NCBI GenBank assembly: GCA_963827755.1
Contig: CAWHCQ010000037.1
Span: 1-64,000, forward strand
Direction of reading: 5' to 3'
DNA length: 64,000 bases
Source: an uncultured Gammaproteobacteria bacterium
GTDB taxonomy: Bacteria > Pseudomonadota > Gammaproteobacteria > UBA9214
Within the stretch, counting starts at the first letter, position 1. Each line of letters starts with the position of its first letter. A model generated the notes under the pieces. The model was given only the letters and a program-made list of their open reading frames with translations, did no database searches and was not told the origin of the DNA. Positions 733 through 12,284 of the stretch are shown piece by piece. A program made the position numbers and the translations under genes.

Positions 733-1486
733 TTATGCCGTTTTATGGGGTCTTGCTTGAAAAACAGACTGAGCGATTCGTACACTTTGTGGATAGGTGT
801 CTCTGGAGTAAACCCGGTTTTTGGAAAATACTTCACTGAGGACGGCAAGAAACTCGGCAGGGGCGGTTGCAGCATATCGGTCCAGCCCTGGTTTTGGATT
901 ATGCTGAAAATCCTCAAAGGCGTAGGTAAAGACTTTTGACCAGTTTTTTGAATTGATGTCAGTGTGCATGGGCGGGAAGCCGTCTGCTGCGCCATTTTGC
1001 ATATCCAGCTTGTGGACAAATTCGTGGATGACGACGTTGTGTCCATCTCTTATCCCGGCGTGTTCAGACATGATTCCAGGACAGGACGACCGGGCCACGT
1101 TGCCATGCCTCGCCGCTGAGTTCACTCCTGGTGTTATGCGCCACGCCGAATTCATCCATTACTGTTCTTTCCGGTGCAAAGCTCGCCGGGTATACGATGA
1201 TGGACGACCATCCCGAATACCAGTCGATCCCGAGATGCAAAATGGGCAGGCAGGCCTGTAGTGCGATGAGCAAGGTCATTTCCTCGCTAACTTCAAGGCC
1301 TTGGGCGCCAAAGAATTCCTTTTCATGGAGAAATAGTATCGCAAGATCCTGCAGGGTTTTTATTTCTTCACCAGACAGGTAGTCAAGTAGCGATAACTGT
1401 GCAACCGCTTTGTCCCAGTACACGGGGGATATTGTGTTGCGTGCAATGATGCGTTGCTGTCGCCATTTTTTCAGAATTTTAAACAT
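733..1486 (-). CDS. Zinc-dependent peptidase, M90/MtfA family, frameshifted near 1070
   Basis: N-half has IALQACLPILHLGIDWY..GEAWQRGPVVLSW; C-half has DGHNVVIHEFVHKLDM (HExxH) and YAATAPAEFLAVLSEVF. Confidence 0.8.
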
Positions 1487-1836: not shown

Positions 1837-2166
1837 ATGGTGGAAATTAGAGAATACCTGGATAGAGATGGACATAGCCCATATGCCAGGTGGTTTGATC
1901 GACTGAACGCAGCCGCTGCTGTGAAGGTCGTCACAGCGATACACCGAATGGAGCAGGGTAATTTTTCTAATGTTAAAGGTGTTGGCGCCGGGGTATATGA
2001 GTATCGGATTAGTTTTGGTCCCGGCTATCGGATTTACTTTGGTAAGGATGGAGACAAGTTGGTCATATTACTCGCTGGTGGTACCAAGAAGCGCCAGGAT
2101 GCCGACATCAAGGCAGCGCAAGCGTATTGGCAAGACTACAAGCGGCGAAAACGGCAAGAGGTGTAA
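1837..2166 (+). CDS. Type II toxin, RelE/ParE family (addiction module killer type)
   Basis: GNFSNVKGVGAGVYEYRISFGPGYRIYFGKDGDKLVILLAGGTKKRQ signature. Confidence 0.9.
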   Translation: MVEIREYLDRDGHSPYARWFDRLNAAAAVKVVTAIHRMEQGNFSNVKGVGAGVYEYRISFGPGYRIYFGKDGDKLVILLAGGTKKRQDADIKAAQAYWQDYKRRKRQEV

Positions 2167-2168
2167 TC

Positions 2169-2492
2169 ATGGCATTAACTAAAGATTTTAAAGAAACAAT
2201 TCAGGCACGCGCACAACGCGATTCTGTGTTTCGCAAAGCCTTGCTTCAAGAAGGTACTGAATGTTTGCTCGCGGGTGATATTGACACCGGTAAAGCGGTC
2301 CTGCGCGATTATATTAATGCGACGATTGGATTTGAGGAATTATCGGAGGTTTTTGGTAAATCTAGCAAAAGCCTTATGCGTATGTTCAGCCCGAAGGGGA
2401 ATCCACAAGCCAGTAATTTGCTCGGAGTCATCAGTTACCTACAGGAGAAGGAGGGCGTTCATCTGGAAGTAAAGGCGCGGAAGGTTGCGTAA
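2169..2492 (+). CDS. Antitoxin / HTH regulator (addiction module antidote type)
   Basis: MALTKDFKETIQARAQRD..LRDYINATIGFEELS..KSLMRMFSPKGNP; starts 2 bp after the toxin stop. Confidence 0.85.
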   Translation: MALTKDFKETIQARAQRDSVFRKALLQEGTECLLAGDIDTGKAVLRDYINATIGFEELSEVFGKSSKSLMRMFSPKGNPQASNLLGVISYLQEKEGVHLEVKARKVA

Positions 2493-2671
2493 CGAGATGT
2501 GCCAATTTTTTTGTTGATGTAGATCGGTACATGGTTTCGGTGTCGATCATCCGTAATGAGTCCGTATCACAGCATCTGTCAACTGCCGGTTTTCATCCTG
2601 GCGAAGAGTAGTTAGGGTTGGCTCAGAAGGGGTCGGTTTAGCCAGTCGTCAGCTCCGGAATCCGGACACAA

Positions 2672-2696
2672 AAATGTTGCCCAAATGTTGCCCAAA
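2672..2696. repeat. Tandem 11-bp direct repeat, possible integrase arm-type site
   Basis: AAATGTTGCCC twice in tandem, about 130 bp from the tmRNA 3' fragment. Confidence 0.5.
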
Positions 2697-2827
2697 AAGT
2701 AATGATTTCAGGGCAAGTTGAATATAGAAGTTTGCAGAAATTCGTGCTTTTTCAGACTTTTAGCGTGCCGCCCTGGTGGGCGGCCGCGGGTTAAAATGTT
2801 TAAGAAAAACCAATAAAAACAACAAAT

Positions 2828-2850
2828 TGGTGGAGGCGGCGGGAATCGAA
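2828..2850 (-). repeat. ssrA: Intronless tmRNA-type 3' end fragment (att-like duplication)
   Basis: Minus strand TTCGATTCCCGCCGCCTCCACCA = T-loop, T-stem 3' strand, acceptor 3' strand with U70, and ACCA; no T-stem 5' strand upstream. Confidence 0.85.
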
Positions 2851-2915
2851 TAGAGGATTATCCGAGCTACATTAACTCCGTCTTGAGTTCCTTATAGTTT
2901 GAGCATTTATTAGAT

Positions 2916-3350
2916 TCAGGGTTTTATTTCCAGGACGCTGTTTTCAAACTGTGTGCGTAATGCCTGCTTTTCGGGAGTGTATTTCCCGTTACGTGGTGTC
3001 AGTTTAATGTAATCACGCAGGATCAGTGCGGCTCGCCTGGATTTATAGCCCCTTAGATTGGCGAATACCTGTTCCAGCAGGTCCATGGCCTGTCGGTTGT
3101 AGATAGCATAGACATAGCTTGGGGAGTGGTGGGCTTTTGCTATACGTTTGTTGGTGATCTTGCCGACACCGGTTGTGCTCAGGACGAATTCCAGCAGATT
3201 TTTCTCGGTACTGCTGATGCTGATGGCGAGCTGGCGGTTCTCGTTGCGGTGTTTACGGGTAAGGGTGATAGTGCCCTCACCATCTATCAGGCCGGCGATA
3301 TACGCGGCATCTACCGGTGTGAGAACATTTACAGGTCGAGCAGTGGCCAT
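2916..3350 (-). CDS. LAGLIDADG homing endonuclease, single motif, free-standing
   Basis: 144 aa with AAYIAGLIDGEGTI motif, followed by LAISISSTEKNLLEFV..GVGKI as in the LAGLIDADG fold. Confidence 0.9.
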   Translation of the reverse strand: MATARPVNVLTPVDAAYIAGLIDGEGTITLTRKHRNENRQLAISISSTEKNLLEFVLSTTGVGKITNKRIAKAHHSPSYVYAIYNRQAMDLLEQVFANLRGYKSRRAALILRDYIKLTPRNGKYTPEKQALRTQFENSVLEIKP

Positions 3351-3365
3351 TCACAATTGTACTAG

Positions 3366-3393
3366 AAAACGGCCCTGGCTGATGCCAGGGCCG
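3366..3393 (-). terminator. Intrinsic terminator after the tmRNA-type 3' exon
   Basis: Minus strand CGGCCCTGGC-ATCA-GCCAGGGCCG followed by TTTT, 5 nt after CCA. Confidence 0.8.
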
Positions 3394-3398
3394 GTAGT

Positions 3399-3415
3399 TG
3401 GTGGAGGCGGCGGGA
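3399..3415 (-). ncRNA. ssrA: tmRNA-type 3' exon
   Basis: TCCCGCCGCCTCCACCA directly after the intron terminal G; identical to 2828-2844. Confidence 0.8.
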
Positions 3416-3687
3416 CAGCTGGTTCCATACCTTTCGATATGGGCTGGACTATTCCTTCACCTGCCGTAGTCAGCAGGGGAGAGCGTGTTGTAGGTTATTG
3501 CCCTCTGGCATCAACCTACCCTAGTACTCCATGGGGAACTTCCCGTTAGGAGCCTATGAGTCTCTAGCCGGCTTACTGGTTTCCCATTCACCGGACGGCG
3601 TTGGCATAGGACCCCTGTCCCTTAGCGTTCACCGTATGAGCTCTCTTTTTCCAACAGGGATCACTCCCTGTGGCGACCATTGTGTTA
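3416..3687 (-). ncRNA. Group I intron, 272 nt, IA-like
   Basis: Minus strand: IGS GGUCG pairs with upstream CGAU; P2 ACAGGGA/UCCCUGU; P3 GAGAGC/GCUCUC; P AUACGGUGAAC; Q AACGCCGUCC; R UAGAGACUCA; extra helices between P7 and P3'; P8 CCUGC/GCAGG; S AAGGAAUAGUCC; P9 with GAAA loop; terminal G at 3416. Confidence 0.88.
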
Positions 3688-3722
3688 ATCGACTCATGCA
3701 GGGCTTGAAAAGGTAATTGATT

Positions 3723-4607
3723 ATGATGCGAATAGCACTGTTTCTGGCGACCAATGCGGCCATCCTGGTCCTGATCAGCGTGGTCTTTCAGGCCCTTGGG
3801 ATCGAGGGTGTTCTGGCCGAAAACGGGGTGGACCTGAACCTGCAGGCCCTGCTGGTGATGTCCGCCGTCATCGGTTTCAGCGGTTCCTTTATCTCGCTGG
3901 CCATGTCCAAGTTCCTGGCCAAGCGGTCCATGGGTGTCAGGCTGATCGAACAGCCGGCCAGTGAAGCCGAGCGCTGGCTGGTGGACACGGTGAAGCGCCA
4001 GGCGCAGATGGCGCGTATCGGCATGCCGGAGGTCGGTATCTTCGACTCGCCGCAGCCGAATGCCTTTGCGACCGGCATGCGGCGCAACAATGCACTGGTT
4101 GCCGTGAGCACCGGCCTGCTGCAGCGCATGAACAGTGATGAGGTCGAGGCGGTGCTGGCCCACGAGATCACCCATGTCAGCAACGGCGACATGGTGACGA
4201 TGGGTTTGATACAGGGCGTGGTGAATACCTTTGTGATCTTCCTTTCGCGCATCATCGGTCATGTCGTTGACCGGGTCGTGTTCAAGACCCAGCGCGGTTA
4301 CGGTCCGGCCTATTACATCACCTCGATTGTCGCCCAGGTGTTTCTGTCCTTCCTCGCGTCAATGATCGTGATGTGGTTTTCACGCCGGCGTGAATTCCGC
4401 GCCGATGCCGGGGGCGCCTCGCTGGCCGGGCGTGAAAAGATGATCAGTGCCCTGCAGGCCCTGCAGCGGGAAAGTAAGCCGCATGATCTGCCGGGTGAAT
4501 TTGCGGCCTTTGGGATTTCCGGTGGACTGGGCAGCGGCATCAAGAAGCTGTTTATGACCCATCCGCCGCTGGAAGTGCGCATTGCAGCCCTGCGGGCGGC
4601 TGCCTGA
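3723..4607 (+). CDS. htpX: Protease HtpX
   Basis: [15 protein letters not shown]; PNAFATG; LAHEITH (HExxH); [12 protein letters not shown]; THPPL. Confidence 0.95.
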
Positions 4608-4617
4608 GTACAGCCTG

Positions 4618-4824
4618 TCAGGGCAGGGGGCCGGTCTTTAACGCGGGTTCGTCGGGGAACAGTTCACGCAGGTCGTCATGGGAGAGCGCTTCGCCTTTTT
4701 CCTCATAGCGCTGCCAGAGCTTCTCCCGGCGGTCATCGTCAAAGTAGAATCCGGCCGGCAGGATGCAGACCGGTTCCCGCCGGTGGTCGGTGATGACCCT
4801 GGGTTCTTTCAGTTTTCCGGACAT
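4618..4824 (-). CDS. Small hypothetical protein
   Basis: 68-aa ORF filling the gap between htpX and the CRP-family gene. Confidence 0.55.
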   Translation of the reverse strand: MSGKLKEPRVITDHRREPVCILPAGFYFDDDRREKLWQRYEEKGEALSHDDLRELFPDEPALKTGPLP

Positions 4825-4954
4825 GCGGGCGGTGATGTATATTTTGGGCTACCTTGGTAAGATACAAGACAATCCGGACAGTGCAATACCCTGACCTGCG
4901 CTTTTTGTGCTACCGGTTCACCTCAGAAATGGAATTTACAGAAAAGGCATAATA

Positions 4955-5596
4955 ATGCTGGAAAATATTCCCCTGTTTTCCGGGCTCTCGCAACAGGCAC
5001 TGGCCAAAATCGAGCAGCACAGTTCTGTCAAGTCCTGCAAGAAGCATACGATCGTTATTAACCAGGACGATGAAACCTACACCCTGTATGTCATCCTCTC
5101 GGGCAGCGTTAAGGTCTATATCAGCGGTGAAGACGGGCGTGAAGTGGTGTTGAATCACCAGACGGCCGGCGACTACTTTGGCGATCTCGCAATGATTGAC
5201 AAGCAGCCGCGCGTGGCCTCGGTGATGACGACCGAGCCGTCGAAATTCATGCTTATCTCGCGTGAGGATTTTATGAGCTGTCTTTCGGAAAATCCGGACA
5301 TTGCAATCAACCTTATCAGGCCGATGACCAGTCGTATGAGGATGCTGGCAAAAAATGTCAGCAGCCTGGCGTTGCTCGATGTCTATGGACGTGTTGCGCG
5401 GACACTGCTTGATCAGTCGGAGAAGCAGGGCGATGTTCTGGTTACCGAGAAGCTGACGCAGCAGGAGATTGCCGACATGGTTGGTGCATCGCGTGCCATG
5501 GTCAGTCGTATCCTTAAAGACCTGAAAGAGGGTGGCTATATCTCGATTGAGAAGAAGCACATTACCATCCATCAAAAACTGCCTGCCCACTGGTAA
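4955..5596 (+). CDS. CRP/FNR-family transcriptional regulator
   Basis: cNMP domain (LYVILSGSVKV, GDYFGDLAMID..PRVASV) and HTH LTQQEIADMVGASRAMVSRILK. Confidence 0.92.
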   Translation: MLENIPLFSGLSQQALAKIEQHSSVKSCKKHTIVINQDDETYTLYVILSGSVKVYISGEDGREVVLNHQTAGDYFGDLAMIDKQPRVASVMTTEPSKFMLISREDFMSCLSENPDIAINLIRPMTSRMRMLAKNVSSLALLDVYGRVARTLLDQSEKQGDVLVTEKLTQQEIADMVGASRAMVSRILKDLKEGGYISIEKKHITIHQKLPAHW

Positions 5597-11804: not shown

Positions 11805-12284
11805 TCAGCGCCCGCGCAGGGTCCTTTGCTTTTCCCGGGCCCAGTCATGCTCTTTCAGCGAGGCCCTTTTGTCATGGGTCTGCTTGCCACGTGCAAGCGC
11901 AATTTCGAGTTTGGCCCGCCCGTGCTTCCAGTACAGGGCCAGCGGCACGATCGTATAGCCCTTGCGCTCCACGGCGCCAATCAGTTTGTCCAGTTCACGC
12001 CGGTGCAGCAACAGGCGGCGGGTGCGTGTCGGCTCGGGCTGTATGTGGGTAGAGGCACTCTTGAGCGGTGCAATGTGCACCCCGTGCAGCCAGGCCTGGT
12101 GATCCTTGATCAGCACATAGCCTTCAGTCAGTTGCACGTGGCTCTCGCGCAGGCTTTTCACTTCCCAGCCCTGCAGGGACAGGCCGGCCTCGAAGCGGTC
12201 CTCGATGAAAAAGTCATGGCGTGCTTTTTTGTTCAGCGCGATGGTGCTGGAGTTGCGCCCGCTGGCGGATTTCTTTTTTCCCAT
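11805..12284 (-). CDS. smpB: SsrA-binding protein SmpB
   Basis: [32 protein letters not shown]; [11 protein letters not shown]; [10 protein letters not shown]. Confidence 0.97.

What the first reader, a model, noticed from the sequence alone, without database searches (positions are those of the whole stretch)
2828..3692. Composite element: group I intron + tmRNA 3' exon + free-standing LAGLIDADG, bracketed by a duplicated tmRNA 3' end
Seen, minus strand, in order: TCGAT | 272-nt intron | TCCCGCCGCCTCCACCA | terminator | LAGLIDADG ORF | TTCGATTCCCGCCGCCTCCACCA. Established: intron homing endonucleases usually lie inside intron loops, and duplicated tmRNA 3' ends are the footprint of integrase-type insertion. 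Inference: an ~840-bp unit bounded by TCGAT direct repeats entered the T-loop carrying its own intron-interrupted replacement 3' end and displaced the original end. The intron would then shield the allele from the adjacent nuclease (collaborative homing). No integrase is encoded in the unit, so it may rely on one in trans.
Basis: partly seen in the sequence, partly recalled or inferred. Interest (0 to 1): 0.93.

Follow-up and report, generated by a model that had tools for sequence, protein, structure and literature searches.

The report
Intron-split tmRNA end with homing nuclease
This is the tail of a tmRNA gene, split by a self-splicing intron and followed by its own homing-endonuclease gene; the arrangement is common in Gammaproteobacteria and may explain how these introns spread, but here the body of the tmRNA gene is missing.

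Summary

The intron sits at the known main tmRNA site (T-loop position 7). What I did not find in print is the nuclease gene lying outside the intron, just after the tmRNA 3' end. In 95 of 98 related gammaproteobacterial loci the nuclease gene follows the tmRNA 3' exon; the other 3 lack upstream sequence. A second 3' end follows it in 21 of 99 loci.

No integrase is present, and the left edge of the second copy varies. I therefore read the unit as a nuclease-driven (collaborative) homing cassette that replaces the tmRNA 3' end and leaves the recipient's own end behind.

About 481 nt present in close relatives are absent, with the break inside the T-loop TCGA. No tmRNA body occurs anywhere in the assembly, yet smpB is intact and an ArfB-like gene is present. 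This is either a recent real deletion (about 0.6) or an assembly fault (about 0.35).

It is a new variant of known kinds, of moderate to high interest.

The parts
3688..3692 (-). Junction pentamer TCGAT. It joins native htpX-ssrA intergenic DNA (...catgagt) to the last bases of the T-loop 5' exon. This is the breakpoint of the ~481-nt loss of the ssrA promoter and body.
   Evidence: L020 reads catgagtcgacagg. Contigs from runs X1 and X4 read catgagt|ttacagg.
3416..3687 (-). Group I intron, 272 nt, without an ORF. It carries P1 with U.G at the 5' splice site and ends in G before the 3' exon.
   Evidence: RF00028 gives 28.7 bits, E 1.3e-5. In a 56-sequence alignment 34 of 67 predicted pairs show compensatory changes. 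It is 86-93% identical to introns sitting in intact ssrA genes (L026, L052).
3399..3415 (-). tmRNA 3' exon: T-loop nucleotide 7, the 3' strand of the T-stem, the 3' strand of the acceptor stem, the discriminator A and CCA.
   Evidence: Identical to the 3' end of same-genus tmRNAs. The same 17-mer, allowing up to 3 mismatches, follows the intron in 95 of 98 related loci.
3370..3393 (-). Intrinsic terminator hairpin carried by the cassette (10 pairs, then TTTTCT).
   Evidence: A comparable hairpin follows the 3' exon in the related loci printed. The intronless relative L020 has no hairpin at that place.
2916..3350 (-). Free-standing single-motif LAGLIDADG homing endonuclease gene, 144 aa and intact.
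   Evidence: Pfam. A profile hit to I-MsoI and I-CreI. AlphaFold model with pLDDT 90.9 and TM 0.77 to I-CreI over all 144 residues. dN/dS is 0.14-0.19 against its 4 closest homologues.
2851..2915 (-). A 65-nt tail between the nuclease stop codon and the second 3' end. It is unique filler with no homologue.
   Evidence: No hit in any fetched locus or elsewhere in the genome. Homology to the closest cassettes ends at the stop codon. The tail plus TTCGATTCC is also seen in Logan contigs X1 record 1 and X2 record 9.
2828..2850 (-). Second (displaced) tmRNA 3' end, running from T-loop nucleotide 1 to CCA. It is continuous with the native ssrA downstream flank.
   Evidence: Window 2639-2850 aligns to L020 205-413, which is the tmRNA 3' end plus its downstream DNA.
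3717..4607 (+). htpX, the conserved divergent neighbour of ssrA in this genus. It fixes the locus as the native ssrA site.
   Evidence: 75-86% nt identity to the htpX next to ssrA in 6 relatives.
11814..12242 (-). smpB, the protein partner of tmRNA, intact.
   Evidence: PF01668 gives 198.8 bits, no internal stops, 163-aa open frame.

Best explanation
The stretch is the 3' part of an intron-form ssrA (tmRNA) locus. [quoted passage not shown] It is followed by the tmRNA 3' exon, a terminator and a free-standing I-CreI/I-MsoI-type LAGLIDADG homing endonuclease gene.

Shown: this order is conserved in many Gammaproteobacteria and is patchy among close relatives.

Inferred mechanism:
- The nuclease cuts intronless ssrA DNA in the T-arm, and the intron protects its own allele by splitting that site (collaborative homing).
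- Repair uses the conserved ssrA body as left homology and copies the intron, 3' exon, terminator and nuclease gene.
- The right side is joined without extended homology, so the recipient's own 3' end is left behind as the second copy.

In this genome the ssrA promoter and body (about 481 nt) are missing, with the break inside the T-loop TCGA. The tmRNA gene is therefore a remnant here. This is either a recent deletion, possibly started by a break at the nuclease site, or an assembly fault.
For: Anatomy.

Intact forms in close relatives:
- G065 (L026) reads htpX, promoter, ssrA body ...gcgggttcgat | intron | tcccgccgcctccacca, terminator, nuclease gene.
- L052 is 92.8% identical over the cassette, with 481 extra nt of promoter and body.

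Linkage of nuclease gene to intron-form ssrA:
- 18 of 18 gammaproteobacterial genome loci.
- 77 of 80 metagenome loci. The other 3 have at most 75 nt upstream.

In the reverse direction, of 20 other class genomes with this intron:
- 8 have a full nuclease gene and 1 is cut by a contig end.
- 6 have partial or split genes.
- 5 have none.

Patchy distribution:
- 2 of 37 genomes of the genus.
- 21 of 400 genomes of the class, in 20 of 320 genera.

Function:
- The intron shows compensatory changes in 34 of 67 pairs.
- The nuclease gene is under purifying selection and has an I-CreI fold.

Second 3' end:
- Present in 21 of 99 loci, as an exact 23-mer in 7. Its left edge always falls within the T-arm.
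- In the window it is continuous with native downstream DNA.
- Cassette homology ends at the stop codon, and the tails differ.

Missing body:
- ARAGORN, RF00023 and blastn with 12 relatives' tmRNAs all find none.
- smpB is intact.
- An ArfB-like gene is present.
Against: - No cleavage data exist, so the target site and cut position are inferred only.
- Rfam scores the intron below its gathering threshold (28.7 against 50).
- 78 of 99 loci have no second copy. It is therefore not a required part of the cassette.
- One intact homologue (Halalkalibacter akibai, L049) has no ssrA within 2.5 kb. In H. flavus (L051) the homologue is convergent to ssrA.
- L095 has the 3' exon and nuclease gene but no intron upstream.
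- The nuclease tree is poorly resolved. Intron type changes at least 13 times on it, although starred branches force only 1 change.
- For the missing body, no listed Logan contig bridges the window's junction. Contigs reaching it from either side run on into the ancestral sequence: X2 record 12 into the ssrA body, X1 and X4 into the promoter region. The intact allele therefore exists for near-identical DNA, and the join could be an assembly error.
- Only 1 of about 120 loci examined shows this loss.
Confidence: 0.68

Rival explanations
1. Mini-island inserted by a tyrosine or serine integrase acting in trans. Recombination between an element-borne copy of the ssrA 3' end and the chromosomal T-loop would produce attL and attR.
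For: A displaced copy of the 3' end, running from the T-loop to CCA, is the classic footprint of islands in t(m)RNA genes (recalled). [quoted passage not shown] The 17/23-nt repeat is real.
Against: - No integrase lies in the unit or in any of the 99 homologous units, and the only ORF is the nuclease gene.
- The left edge of the second copy varies between loci.
- 78 of 99 loci have no second copy.
- The first copy is interrupted by an intron whose position matches a homing site.
- Close cassettes share sequence only up to the nuclease stop codon.
Confidence: 0.05
2. The second 3' end is a working part of the element rather than a passive leftover. It would serve as a short right-hand homology arm, letting the nuclease gene be co-converted with the intron into any ssrA whatever lies downstream.
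For: - Without homology beyond the nuclease gene, repair would be expected to resolve in the first 3' exon and copy the intron alone (inference).
- The copy recurs in 21 of 99 loci, as an exact 23-mer in 7, at 23-203 nt past the nuclease gene.
- Many copies share the form ctGCGGGTTCGATTCCCGCC....
Against: - It is absent from 78 of 99 loci, including L052 (only 133 nt held downstream) and L055 among the window's closest cassettes. L053 has only a diverged copy, and L054 has just 28 nt downstream.
- Tails between the stop codon and the copy are unrelated between lineages.
- Several copies are decayed (L033, L039, L053, L059, L070), as expected of unselected DNA.
Confidence: 0.2
3. The loss of the ssrA body is an assembly or binning fault. 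The real genome would carry a complete intron-form ssrA like L052 and G065.
For: - The right breakpoint falls exactly where intron-plus, intronless and variant-intron strains diverge, a natural branch point in a metagenome graph (inference).
- Logan contigs with 99-100% identity run from the intron into the ssrA body (X2 record 12) and from htpX into the promoter region (X1, X4).
- No listed contig bridges the join.
- smpB is intact.
- The genome is 91.8% complete in 52 contigs.
- Curators of the tmRNA database report large internal deletions of tmRNA genes in some older MAGs (PMC11915505, passage).
Against: - The two sides share only 1-5 nt (T, or TCGA/TCGAT), too little for a k-mer or overlap join.
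- No leftover contig with the body exists in the bin.
- The laid runs hold at most 38% of the words and may not be the source sample.
- An ArfB-like rescue factor would make a real loss tolerable (its role is recalled).
Confidence: 0.35
4. The nuclease gene is a passenger or a domesticated gene that does not mobilise the intron. It might cut another site or act as a maturase, and the linkage would reflect shared descent only.
For: - Cleavage is untested.
- A terminator lies between ssrA and the gene, and no promoter-like site was found on that strand.
- Purifying selection would also fit a host function.
Against: - Distribution is patchy within one genus and across 20 genera.
- Partial, frameshifted and lost copies sit beside retained introns, as in the invasion-decay cycle of homing genes (recalled).
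- A displaced host 3' end lies exactly at the presumed site.
Confidence: 0.1

Closest known systems
[quoted passage not shown]
   Same: The same insertion point (GGGTTCGAT | intron | TCCCGCC...), -1 U paired with G in P1, omega G, and an ORF-less intron of about 250-350 nt.
   Different: That paper counts homing endonuclease genes only inside introns (36 of 883, after P9 or in P7.1) and notes the fraction is low. In the passages I read it does not mention a nuclease gene downstream of the gene, and the word 'downstream' occurs 0 times. Here the nuclease gene lies outside both the intron and the mature RNA. In this window the tmRNA body is also missing. Its supplementary tables could not be opened and may list these sequences.
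[quoted passage not shown] Review PMC3984707, passages; T4 mobE/I-TevIII paper PMC2790892, search listing only; the cyanophage psbA/F-CphI case as cited in that review.
   Same: An intron without an ORF and an adjacent free-standing nuclease gene are associated with one conserved site. Here the shared site is inferred.
   Different: - This is a bacterial chromosome, not a phage.
- The host gene is a stable RNA gene.
- The enzyme is a LAGLIDADG type.
- The cassette carries its own copy of the 3' exon and a terminator.
- The recipient's 3' end is often left behind.
I-CreI, I-MsoI and I-CvuI: homodimeric single-motif LAGLIDADG enzymes encoded in rRNA group I introns.
   Same: The size (144 aa), one LAGLIDADG motif (AGLIDGEG) and the same fold (TM 0.73-0.78).
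   Different: Only 17-25% identity. The gene is free-standing rather than intron-encoded. The presumed target is the tmRNA T-arm. The homodimer state and the 4-nt 3' overhang are assumed from the family, not tested.
[quoted passage not shown]
   Same: The incoming DNA supplies a replacement 3' end, and the original 3' end fragment is displaced downstream.
   Different: There is no integrase, the payload is only about 0.57 kb, the repeat boundary is variable, and the replacement end is intron-interrupted.

Membership tests
Group I intron | Conserved catalytic core (P3-P8 with the R and S elements), scored by a covariance model. | tested here: inconclusive
   RF00028 gives 28.7 bits, E 1.3e-5, over the full model, but this is below the gathering score of 50.
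Group I intron | Helices supported by covariation among homologues. | tested here: met
   In 56 sequences, 34 of 67 predicted pairs show compensatory changes (P2, P3, P4, P6, P8, P9). The window's row keeps the intron pairs.
Group I intron | -1 U in a U.G pair in P1, and G at the intron's 3' end. | tested here: met
   The U.G pair is invariant (columns 11/23, 56 of 56). G precedes TCCCGCC in 56 of 56 sequences.
Group I intron | Self-splicing activity. | not testable with these tools
   This needs in vitro transcription and splicing, or RNA reads across the ligated exons.
Intron-form tmRNA gene | A complete tmRNA: 5' acceptor strand, tag reading frame and pseudoknots upstream of the T-loop. | tested here: not met
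   Absent from the window and from the whole assembly. Present in relatives G065/L026 and L052.
Intron-form tmRNA gene | Intron in the T-psi-C loop, with a 3' exon that restores the loop, T-stem, acceptor strand and CCA. | tested here: met
   TCGAT | intron | TCCCGCCGCCTCCACCA. The spliced product would equal the same-genus 3' end. Position 7 is read from the paper's numbering.
LAGLIDADG homing endonuclease (I-CreI type) | Family profile match with the acidic motif residue. | tested here: met
   PF14528 and PF00961 both score above their cut-offs. D23, G24, E25 and G26 are invariant in 15 sequences.
LAGLIDADG homing endonuclease (I-CreI type) | Single-domain alpha-beta-beta-alpha-beta-beta-alpha fold. 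| tested here: met
   Model pLDDT is 90.9. I-CreI, I-MsoI and I-CvuI are the top hits, at TM 0.73-0.78 over 143-144 columns.
LAGLIDADG homing endonuclease (I-CreI type) | Site-specific double-strand cleavage as a homodimer. | not tested
   No complex prediction was run, and cleavage needs an enzyme assay.
Collaborative homing system | An ORF-less intron with an adjacent free-standing nuclease gene. | tested here: met
   95 of 98 related loci, plus the window.
Collaborative homing system | The nuclease target equals the intron insertion site, and intron-plus alleles are immune. | not testable with these tools
   This is inferred only, from linkage and from displaced 3' ends that begin within the T-arm.
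Integrase-type island at ssrA | An integrase gene in the element. | tested here: not met
   The only ORF with a family match between the repeats is the LAGLIDADG gene.
Integrase-type island at ssrA | A fixed att core boundary shared by members. | tested here: not met
   The left edge of the second copy differs among the 21 loci that have one.

The most novel reading that the evidence does not exclude
A widespread chromosomal homing cassette in Gammaproteobacteria, with more than 500 homologues in the metagenome scan. An I-CreI-like nuclease encoded just outside the tmRNA gene would cut the T-arm of intronless ssrA. The intron, a replacement 3' exon, a terminator and the nuclease gene would then be copied in as one block, using only the ssrA body as homology. 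The host's own 3' end would be left behind as a scar.

This would be the first cellular, RNA-gene example of collaborative homing, and it would account for the scarcity of nuclease genes inside tmRNA introns. The window would further show the cost of such an element. A break at the same TCGA would have removed the ssrA promoter and body, giving a natural tmRNA-null lineage that lives on ArfB.
Probability: 0.3. Interest if true: 0.78.

Novelty: new variant of a known kind. Interest (0 to 1): 0.6.

Why it matters
The curators of the tmRNA database noted that only 4.1% of intron-form tmRNA genes carry a homing endonuclease gene, far fewer than archaeal rRNA introns. Their counts looked only inside introns. 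The gene lies just outside the tmRNA gene in 18 of 18 gammaproteobacterial genome loci, 77 of 80 metagenome loci and 15 of 20 sampled class genomes with this intron. That offers a direct explanation for how these ORF-less introns move.

It also gives a testable cellular case of collaborative homing, described so far for phages. Named isolate genomes that carry the cassette are Thioalkalivibrio sulfidiphilus ALJ17, T. denitrificans ALJD and Parahaliea mediterranea.

The enzyme would be a compact meganuclease whose presumed target is a conserved T-arm sequence.

For annotation there are three practical lessons:
- Second copies of the tmRNA 3' end need not mark an integrase island.
- ARAGORN found none of these genes in the 20 loci tested.
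- Rfam's tmRNA model covered only the body up to the T-loop in the two intron-form loci where it matched (L052, L051).

If the loss of the ssrA body is real, it is a rare natural loss of tmRNA with smpB still intact.

Tried and rejected
- A two-piece (permuted) tmRNA was considered. No coding piece or 5' acceptor strand occurs anywhere in the genome, so I rejected it.
- A tmRNA body encoded elsewhere and joined by trans-splicing has nothing in the assembly to support it.
- Reverse splicing of the intron into the upstream site followed by intron-intron recombination was considered. The upstream site pairs poorly with the guide sequence, and two rare steps are needed. I did not pursue it.
- Deletion between two TCGA (TaqI-like) sites needs an L020-like ancestor. 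The closest wild-type contigs (X1, X4) read TTAC there. This is left open.
- A 9-nt match (TGGTCGCCA) between the intron's 5' region and htpX (repeat D1) is at chance level and not at the junction.
- The first Rfam scan of 10 kb at E<=1 missed the intron. It appeared only in the per-genome and 341-nt scans.
- Laying Logan contigs of 4 runs showed no listed contig across 3687/3688. The runs hold at most 38% of the words, only part of the pieces are listed, and contigs cannot show absence, so this does not settle the deletion.
- The nuclease tree against intron type used only the quick tree because the careful search did not finish. It is poorly resolved (45 of 90 inner branches open), so no claim of co-descent rests on it.
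- ArfA was not found in a genome that is 91.8% complete.
- Literature searches for a nuclease gene beside tmRNA found none. PMC4131195 has 0 occurrences of intron, homing, endonuclease or LAGLIDADG.
They may list these gammaproteobacterial intron forms.
- Complex prediction, the search for homologous proteins, the listing of cluster members, the protein-atlas search and search_dna_similar were not used.
Full report
**What is in the sequence**

On the minus strand the window reads as follows:

| Coordinates | Element |
|---|---|
| 3692-3688 | TCGAT |
| 3687-3416 | 272-nt segment (the intron) |
| 3415-3399 | TCCCGCCGCCTCCACCA |
| 3393-3370 | GC-rich hairpin followed by TTTTCT |
| 3350-2916 | 144-aa ORF |
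| 2915-2851 | 65 nt of unique DNA |
| 2850-2828 | TTCGATTCCCGCCGCCTCCACCA |

- The 17-mer occurs exactly twice in 64 kb. Chance predicts 0.02 matches, and 0 of 100 shuffles reached 2.
- The 23-mer is the exact 3' end of 7 of 8 same-genus tmRNAs recovered with ARAGORN from relatives.
- The 272-nt segment matches Rfam Intron_gpI over the whole model: 28.7 bits, E 1.3e-5, gathering score 50. A wider scan at E<=1 had not listed it.
- The ORF matches LAGLIDADG_3 and LAGLIDADG_1 above Pfam's cut-offs.

ARAGORN finds no tmRNA in the window or in the 52-contig genome. Rfam tmRNA hits in the genome are only tRNAs. blastn with 12 relatives' tmRNAs finds only the 23-mer and the 17-mer.

In relatives, htpX is the divergent neighbour of ssrA:
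- Window 3689-5059 aligns to L020 905-2276.
- Window 2639-2850 aligns to L020 205-413.
- ssrA lies between them, at L020 391-776.

The metagenome contig L052 is a close relative. It is 92.8% identical over the cassette and 88% over the htpX start. It has 481 nt of promoter plus ssrA body (L052 680-1160; tmRNA model hit at 804-1167) exactly where the window has none.

The window therefore sits at the native ssrA locus, with the promoter and the first ~363 nt of the gene missing. The break joins ...catgagt to cgat|intron:
- L020 reads catgagtcgacagg at the upstream site.
- Two near-identical environmental contigs read catgagt|ttacagg.

The shared bases at the join are thus between 1 nt (T) and 5 nt (TCGAT).

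**The intact form and its spread**

A same-genus genome (G065, L026) carries the complete arrangement: htpX, promoter, gggggcgacc...gcgggttcgat | intron (86% identical) | tcccgccgcctccacca, hairpin, and the start of the nuclease gene, where the contig ends.

Genome scan with the nuclease protein:
- One scan of one genome per species gave 20 loci.
- All 18 gammaproteobacterial loci have ...CTG|TCCCGCCG(C/T)CTCCACCA 49-128 nt upstream of the nuclease gene.
- 17 of these 18 show the ssrA T-stem and loop (GCGGGTTCGAT) in front of a 251-345-nt intron. The eighteenth has too little upstream sequence.
- They include the isolate genomes Thioalkalivibrio sulfidiphilus ALJ17, T. denitrificans ALJD and Parahaliea mediterranea.

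Metagenome scan with a 15-sequence profile (A1):
- It found at least 511 relatives, of which 80 loci were kept.
- 77 of 80 have the 3' exon 45-245 nt upstream of the nuclease gene. The other 3 have at most 75 nt of upstream sequence.
- 65 of the 77 also show the 5' exon junction.
- Of the 12 that do not, 11 begin inside the intron. One (L095) has AT-rich non-intron DNA in front of the 3' exon.

In the reverse direction, the intron plus 3' exon was found in 21 of 400 sampled genomes of the class, in 20 of 320 genera. The 20 genomes other than this one break down as follows:

| Nuclease gene downstream | Genomes |
|---|---|
| Full-length | 8 |
| Cut by a contig end | 1 |
| Partial or split | 6 |
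| None | 5 |

Within the genus only 2 of 37 genomes carry the cassette. Three nuclease genes in the first genome set are broken by stops or frameshifts (L048, L050, L051). This mix of patchy presence with intact, decaying and lost nuclease genes beside retained introns is what a homing element is expected to leave. That expectation is established knowledge, recalled here.

**Are the parts functional?**

An alignment of 56 junction sequences, none more than 92% identical to another among those picked, gives a consensus fold in which 34 of 67 pairs show compensatory changes. The U.G pair at the 5' splice site is invariant, and G precedes the 3' exon in all 56. The window's copy keeps the intron helices. 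Only the T-stem pairing of the exons is broken, because GCGG is replaced by CATG.

For the nuclease gene:
- dN/dS is 0.14-0.19 in all 10 pairs among the window and its 4 closest homologues.
- A profile search hits I-MsoI and I-CreI.
- The AlphaFold model (pLDDT 90.9) superposes on I-CreI, I-MsoI and I-CvuI over its full length, at TM 0.73-0.78.

These enzymes are homodimers that cut pseudo-palindromic sites of about 22 bp and leave 4-nt 3' overhangs. That is family knowledge, recalled and not tested here. The T-arm DNA (GCGGG TTCGATT CCCGC) is an imperfect inverted repeat around TCGA, which suits such an enzyme. This is inference.

**The second 3' end**

I searched the 800 nt after the nuclease gene in 99 loci, of which 93 have at least 150 nt there. 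The criterion was TTCGATTCCCGCCGCC with up to 3 mismatches, or CCCGCCGCCTCCACCA with up to 2.
- 21 loci have a second copy.
- 7 of these are exact 23-mers: the window, L043, L062, L069, L086, L094 and L096.
- Others are decayed.
- A few weak ones (L053, L078, L080, L100) may be other tRNA-like remnants.

The left edge of the copy varies:
- It is at TTCGAT in the window and L043.
- It is at GCGGG or CGCGGG of the T-stem in 9 loci.
- It is at tCGGG or GCaGG in 3 loci.
- L044 retains only GCCGCCGCCTCCACCA.

In the window the copy is continuous with DNA homologous to the relatives' ssrA downstream flank. It therefore sits where the host's own 3' end belongs.

Among the window and its four closest cassettes, homology stops at the nuclease stop codon. 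What follows is different in each. The window's 65-nt tail matches nothing else that I hold, although Logan contigs of two runs carry the same tail joined to TTCGATTCC.

No ORF other than the nuclease gene lies in these units.

**Mechanism**

Shown:
- The order of parts.
- The linkage between nuclease gene and intron-form ssrA.
- The patchiness of the cassette.
- Conservation of the ribozyme and the enzyme.
- The presence, position and variable edge of the displaced ends.

Inferred:
- The enzyme cuts intronless ssrA in the T-arm.
- The intron splits that site and so protects its carrier.
- The left break end uses the highly conserved ssrA body as homology.
- Synthesis runs through the intron, 3' exon, terminator and nuclease gene.
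- The right end is then joined with little or no homology, leaving the recipient's 3' end, which later decays.

An integrase is neither present nor needed, and the variable repeat edge argues against one. A variant reading cannot be excluded: the second copy might serve as a short right-hand homology arm. Its absence from 78 of 99 loci, and the unrelated tails, speak against it being a required part.

**The missing body**

Two readings remain.

A real, recent deletion is supported by these points:
- The join shares only 1-5 nt, too little for an assembler to create.
- No spare contig with the body exists in the bin.
- The break lies inside the T-loop TCGA, where a nuclease-made break would lie.
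- An ArfB-like gene (NF006718, 160.5 bits) could cover ribosome rescue. That role is recalled.
- smpB is still intact, as expected if the loss is young.

An assembly fault is supported by these points:
- Contigs with 99-100% identity run from the intron into the ssrA body (X2 record 12) and from htpX into the promoter region (X1, X4).
- No listed contig crosses the join.
- Curators have seen large internal deletions of tmRNA genes in some older MAGs (PMC11915505, passage).
- This is the only case among about 120 loci.

I put the real deletion at about 0.6 and an artefact at about 0.35. Neither changes the reading of the cassette.

**Comparison with what is known**

Group I introns in the tmRNA T-loop are known. 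PMC11915505 reports 883 unique sequences, most at loop position 7, in 21 phyla (passages read). A preprint by the same senior author says the same of 343 genes (10.1101/2020.01.27.920355, first part of the text read).

The 2025 paper counts nuclease genes only within introns (36 of 883) and remarks that this is low. In the passages I read it does not mention genes downstream of ssrA.

Collaborative homing of an ORF-less intron with a free-standing nuclease is described for two phages (review PMC3984707, passages).

Four searches of the paper library found no description of a free-standing nuclease gene beside tmRNA. Subscription papers and the supplements are outside what I could see.

In Halalkalibacter flavus (Bacillota) a frameshifted homologue lies convergent to an intron-form ssrA. 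In H. akibai an intact homologue has no ssrA within 2.5 kb. The association thus reaches a second phylum but is not absolute.

**Verdict**

The unit and the displaced end are real and collaborative homing is plausible. The integrase mechanism and the T-loop target duplication are not supported, and the loss of the tmRNA body was overlooked.
- It is a new variant of known kinds.
- Interest is 0.6.

Noticed in passing
G000 contigs outside the window: C32:111-327 (+) and C28:61506-61744 (+): The same genome has two more group I introns. One lies in tRNA-Leu(UAA) (46.1 bits) and one in tRNA-Gln(CUG) (81.8 bits, also called by ARAGORN as an intron-containing tRNA).
   Followed up: partly
window 733-1486 (-): A Peptidase_M90 (MtfA-like) gene is split into two overlapping ORFs (1064-1486 and 733-1155) that cover profile positions 2-136 and 135-242. 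This is either a frameshift or a sequencing error.
   Followed up: partly
window 1837-2492 (+): A Gp49-like (HigB-type) toxin ORF overlaps a 121-aa ORF that has no Pfam hit. They look like a toxin-antitoxin pair just downstream of the displaced tmRNA 3' end, near the contig start.
   Followed up: no
L051 2501-3593 (Halalkalibacter flavus) and L049 (H. akibai): In a Bacillota genome a frameshifted homologue of the nuclease gene lies convergent to an intron-form ssrA (3' exon TCCCACCGTCTCCACCA at 2960-2976 on the minus strand). In H. akibai the homologue is intact, but no ssrA lies within 2.5 kb.
   Followed up: partly
L095 1415-1932: A 3' exon, terminator and nuclease gene are preceded by AT-rich coding DNA instead of an intron and ssrA body. 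This may be the far end of an island inserted into an intron-form ssrA.
   Followed up: no
L143 (G246:C5) and L156 (G246:C44): One genome holds two copies of the intron with a full-length nuclease gene on different contigs. The cause could be duplication, strain mixture or contamination.
   Followed up: no
L048, L050, L139, L154, L136, L147, L152, L155: Nuclease genes in these loci carry internal stops, frameshifts or truncations beside apparently intact introns.
   Followed up: partly
G000 C4, C13, C17, C21: With introns allowed, ARAGORN calls six further 'intron-containing' tRNAs with inserts of 114-1665 nt. Rfam's group I model does not hit them, so they are probably false calls.
   Followed up: no
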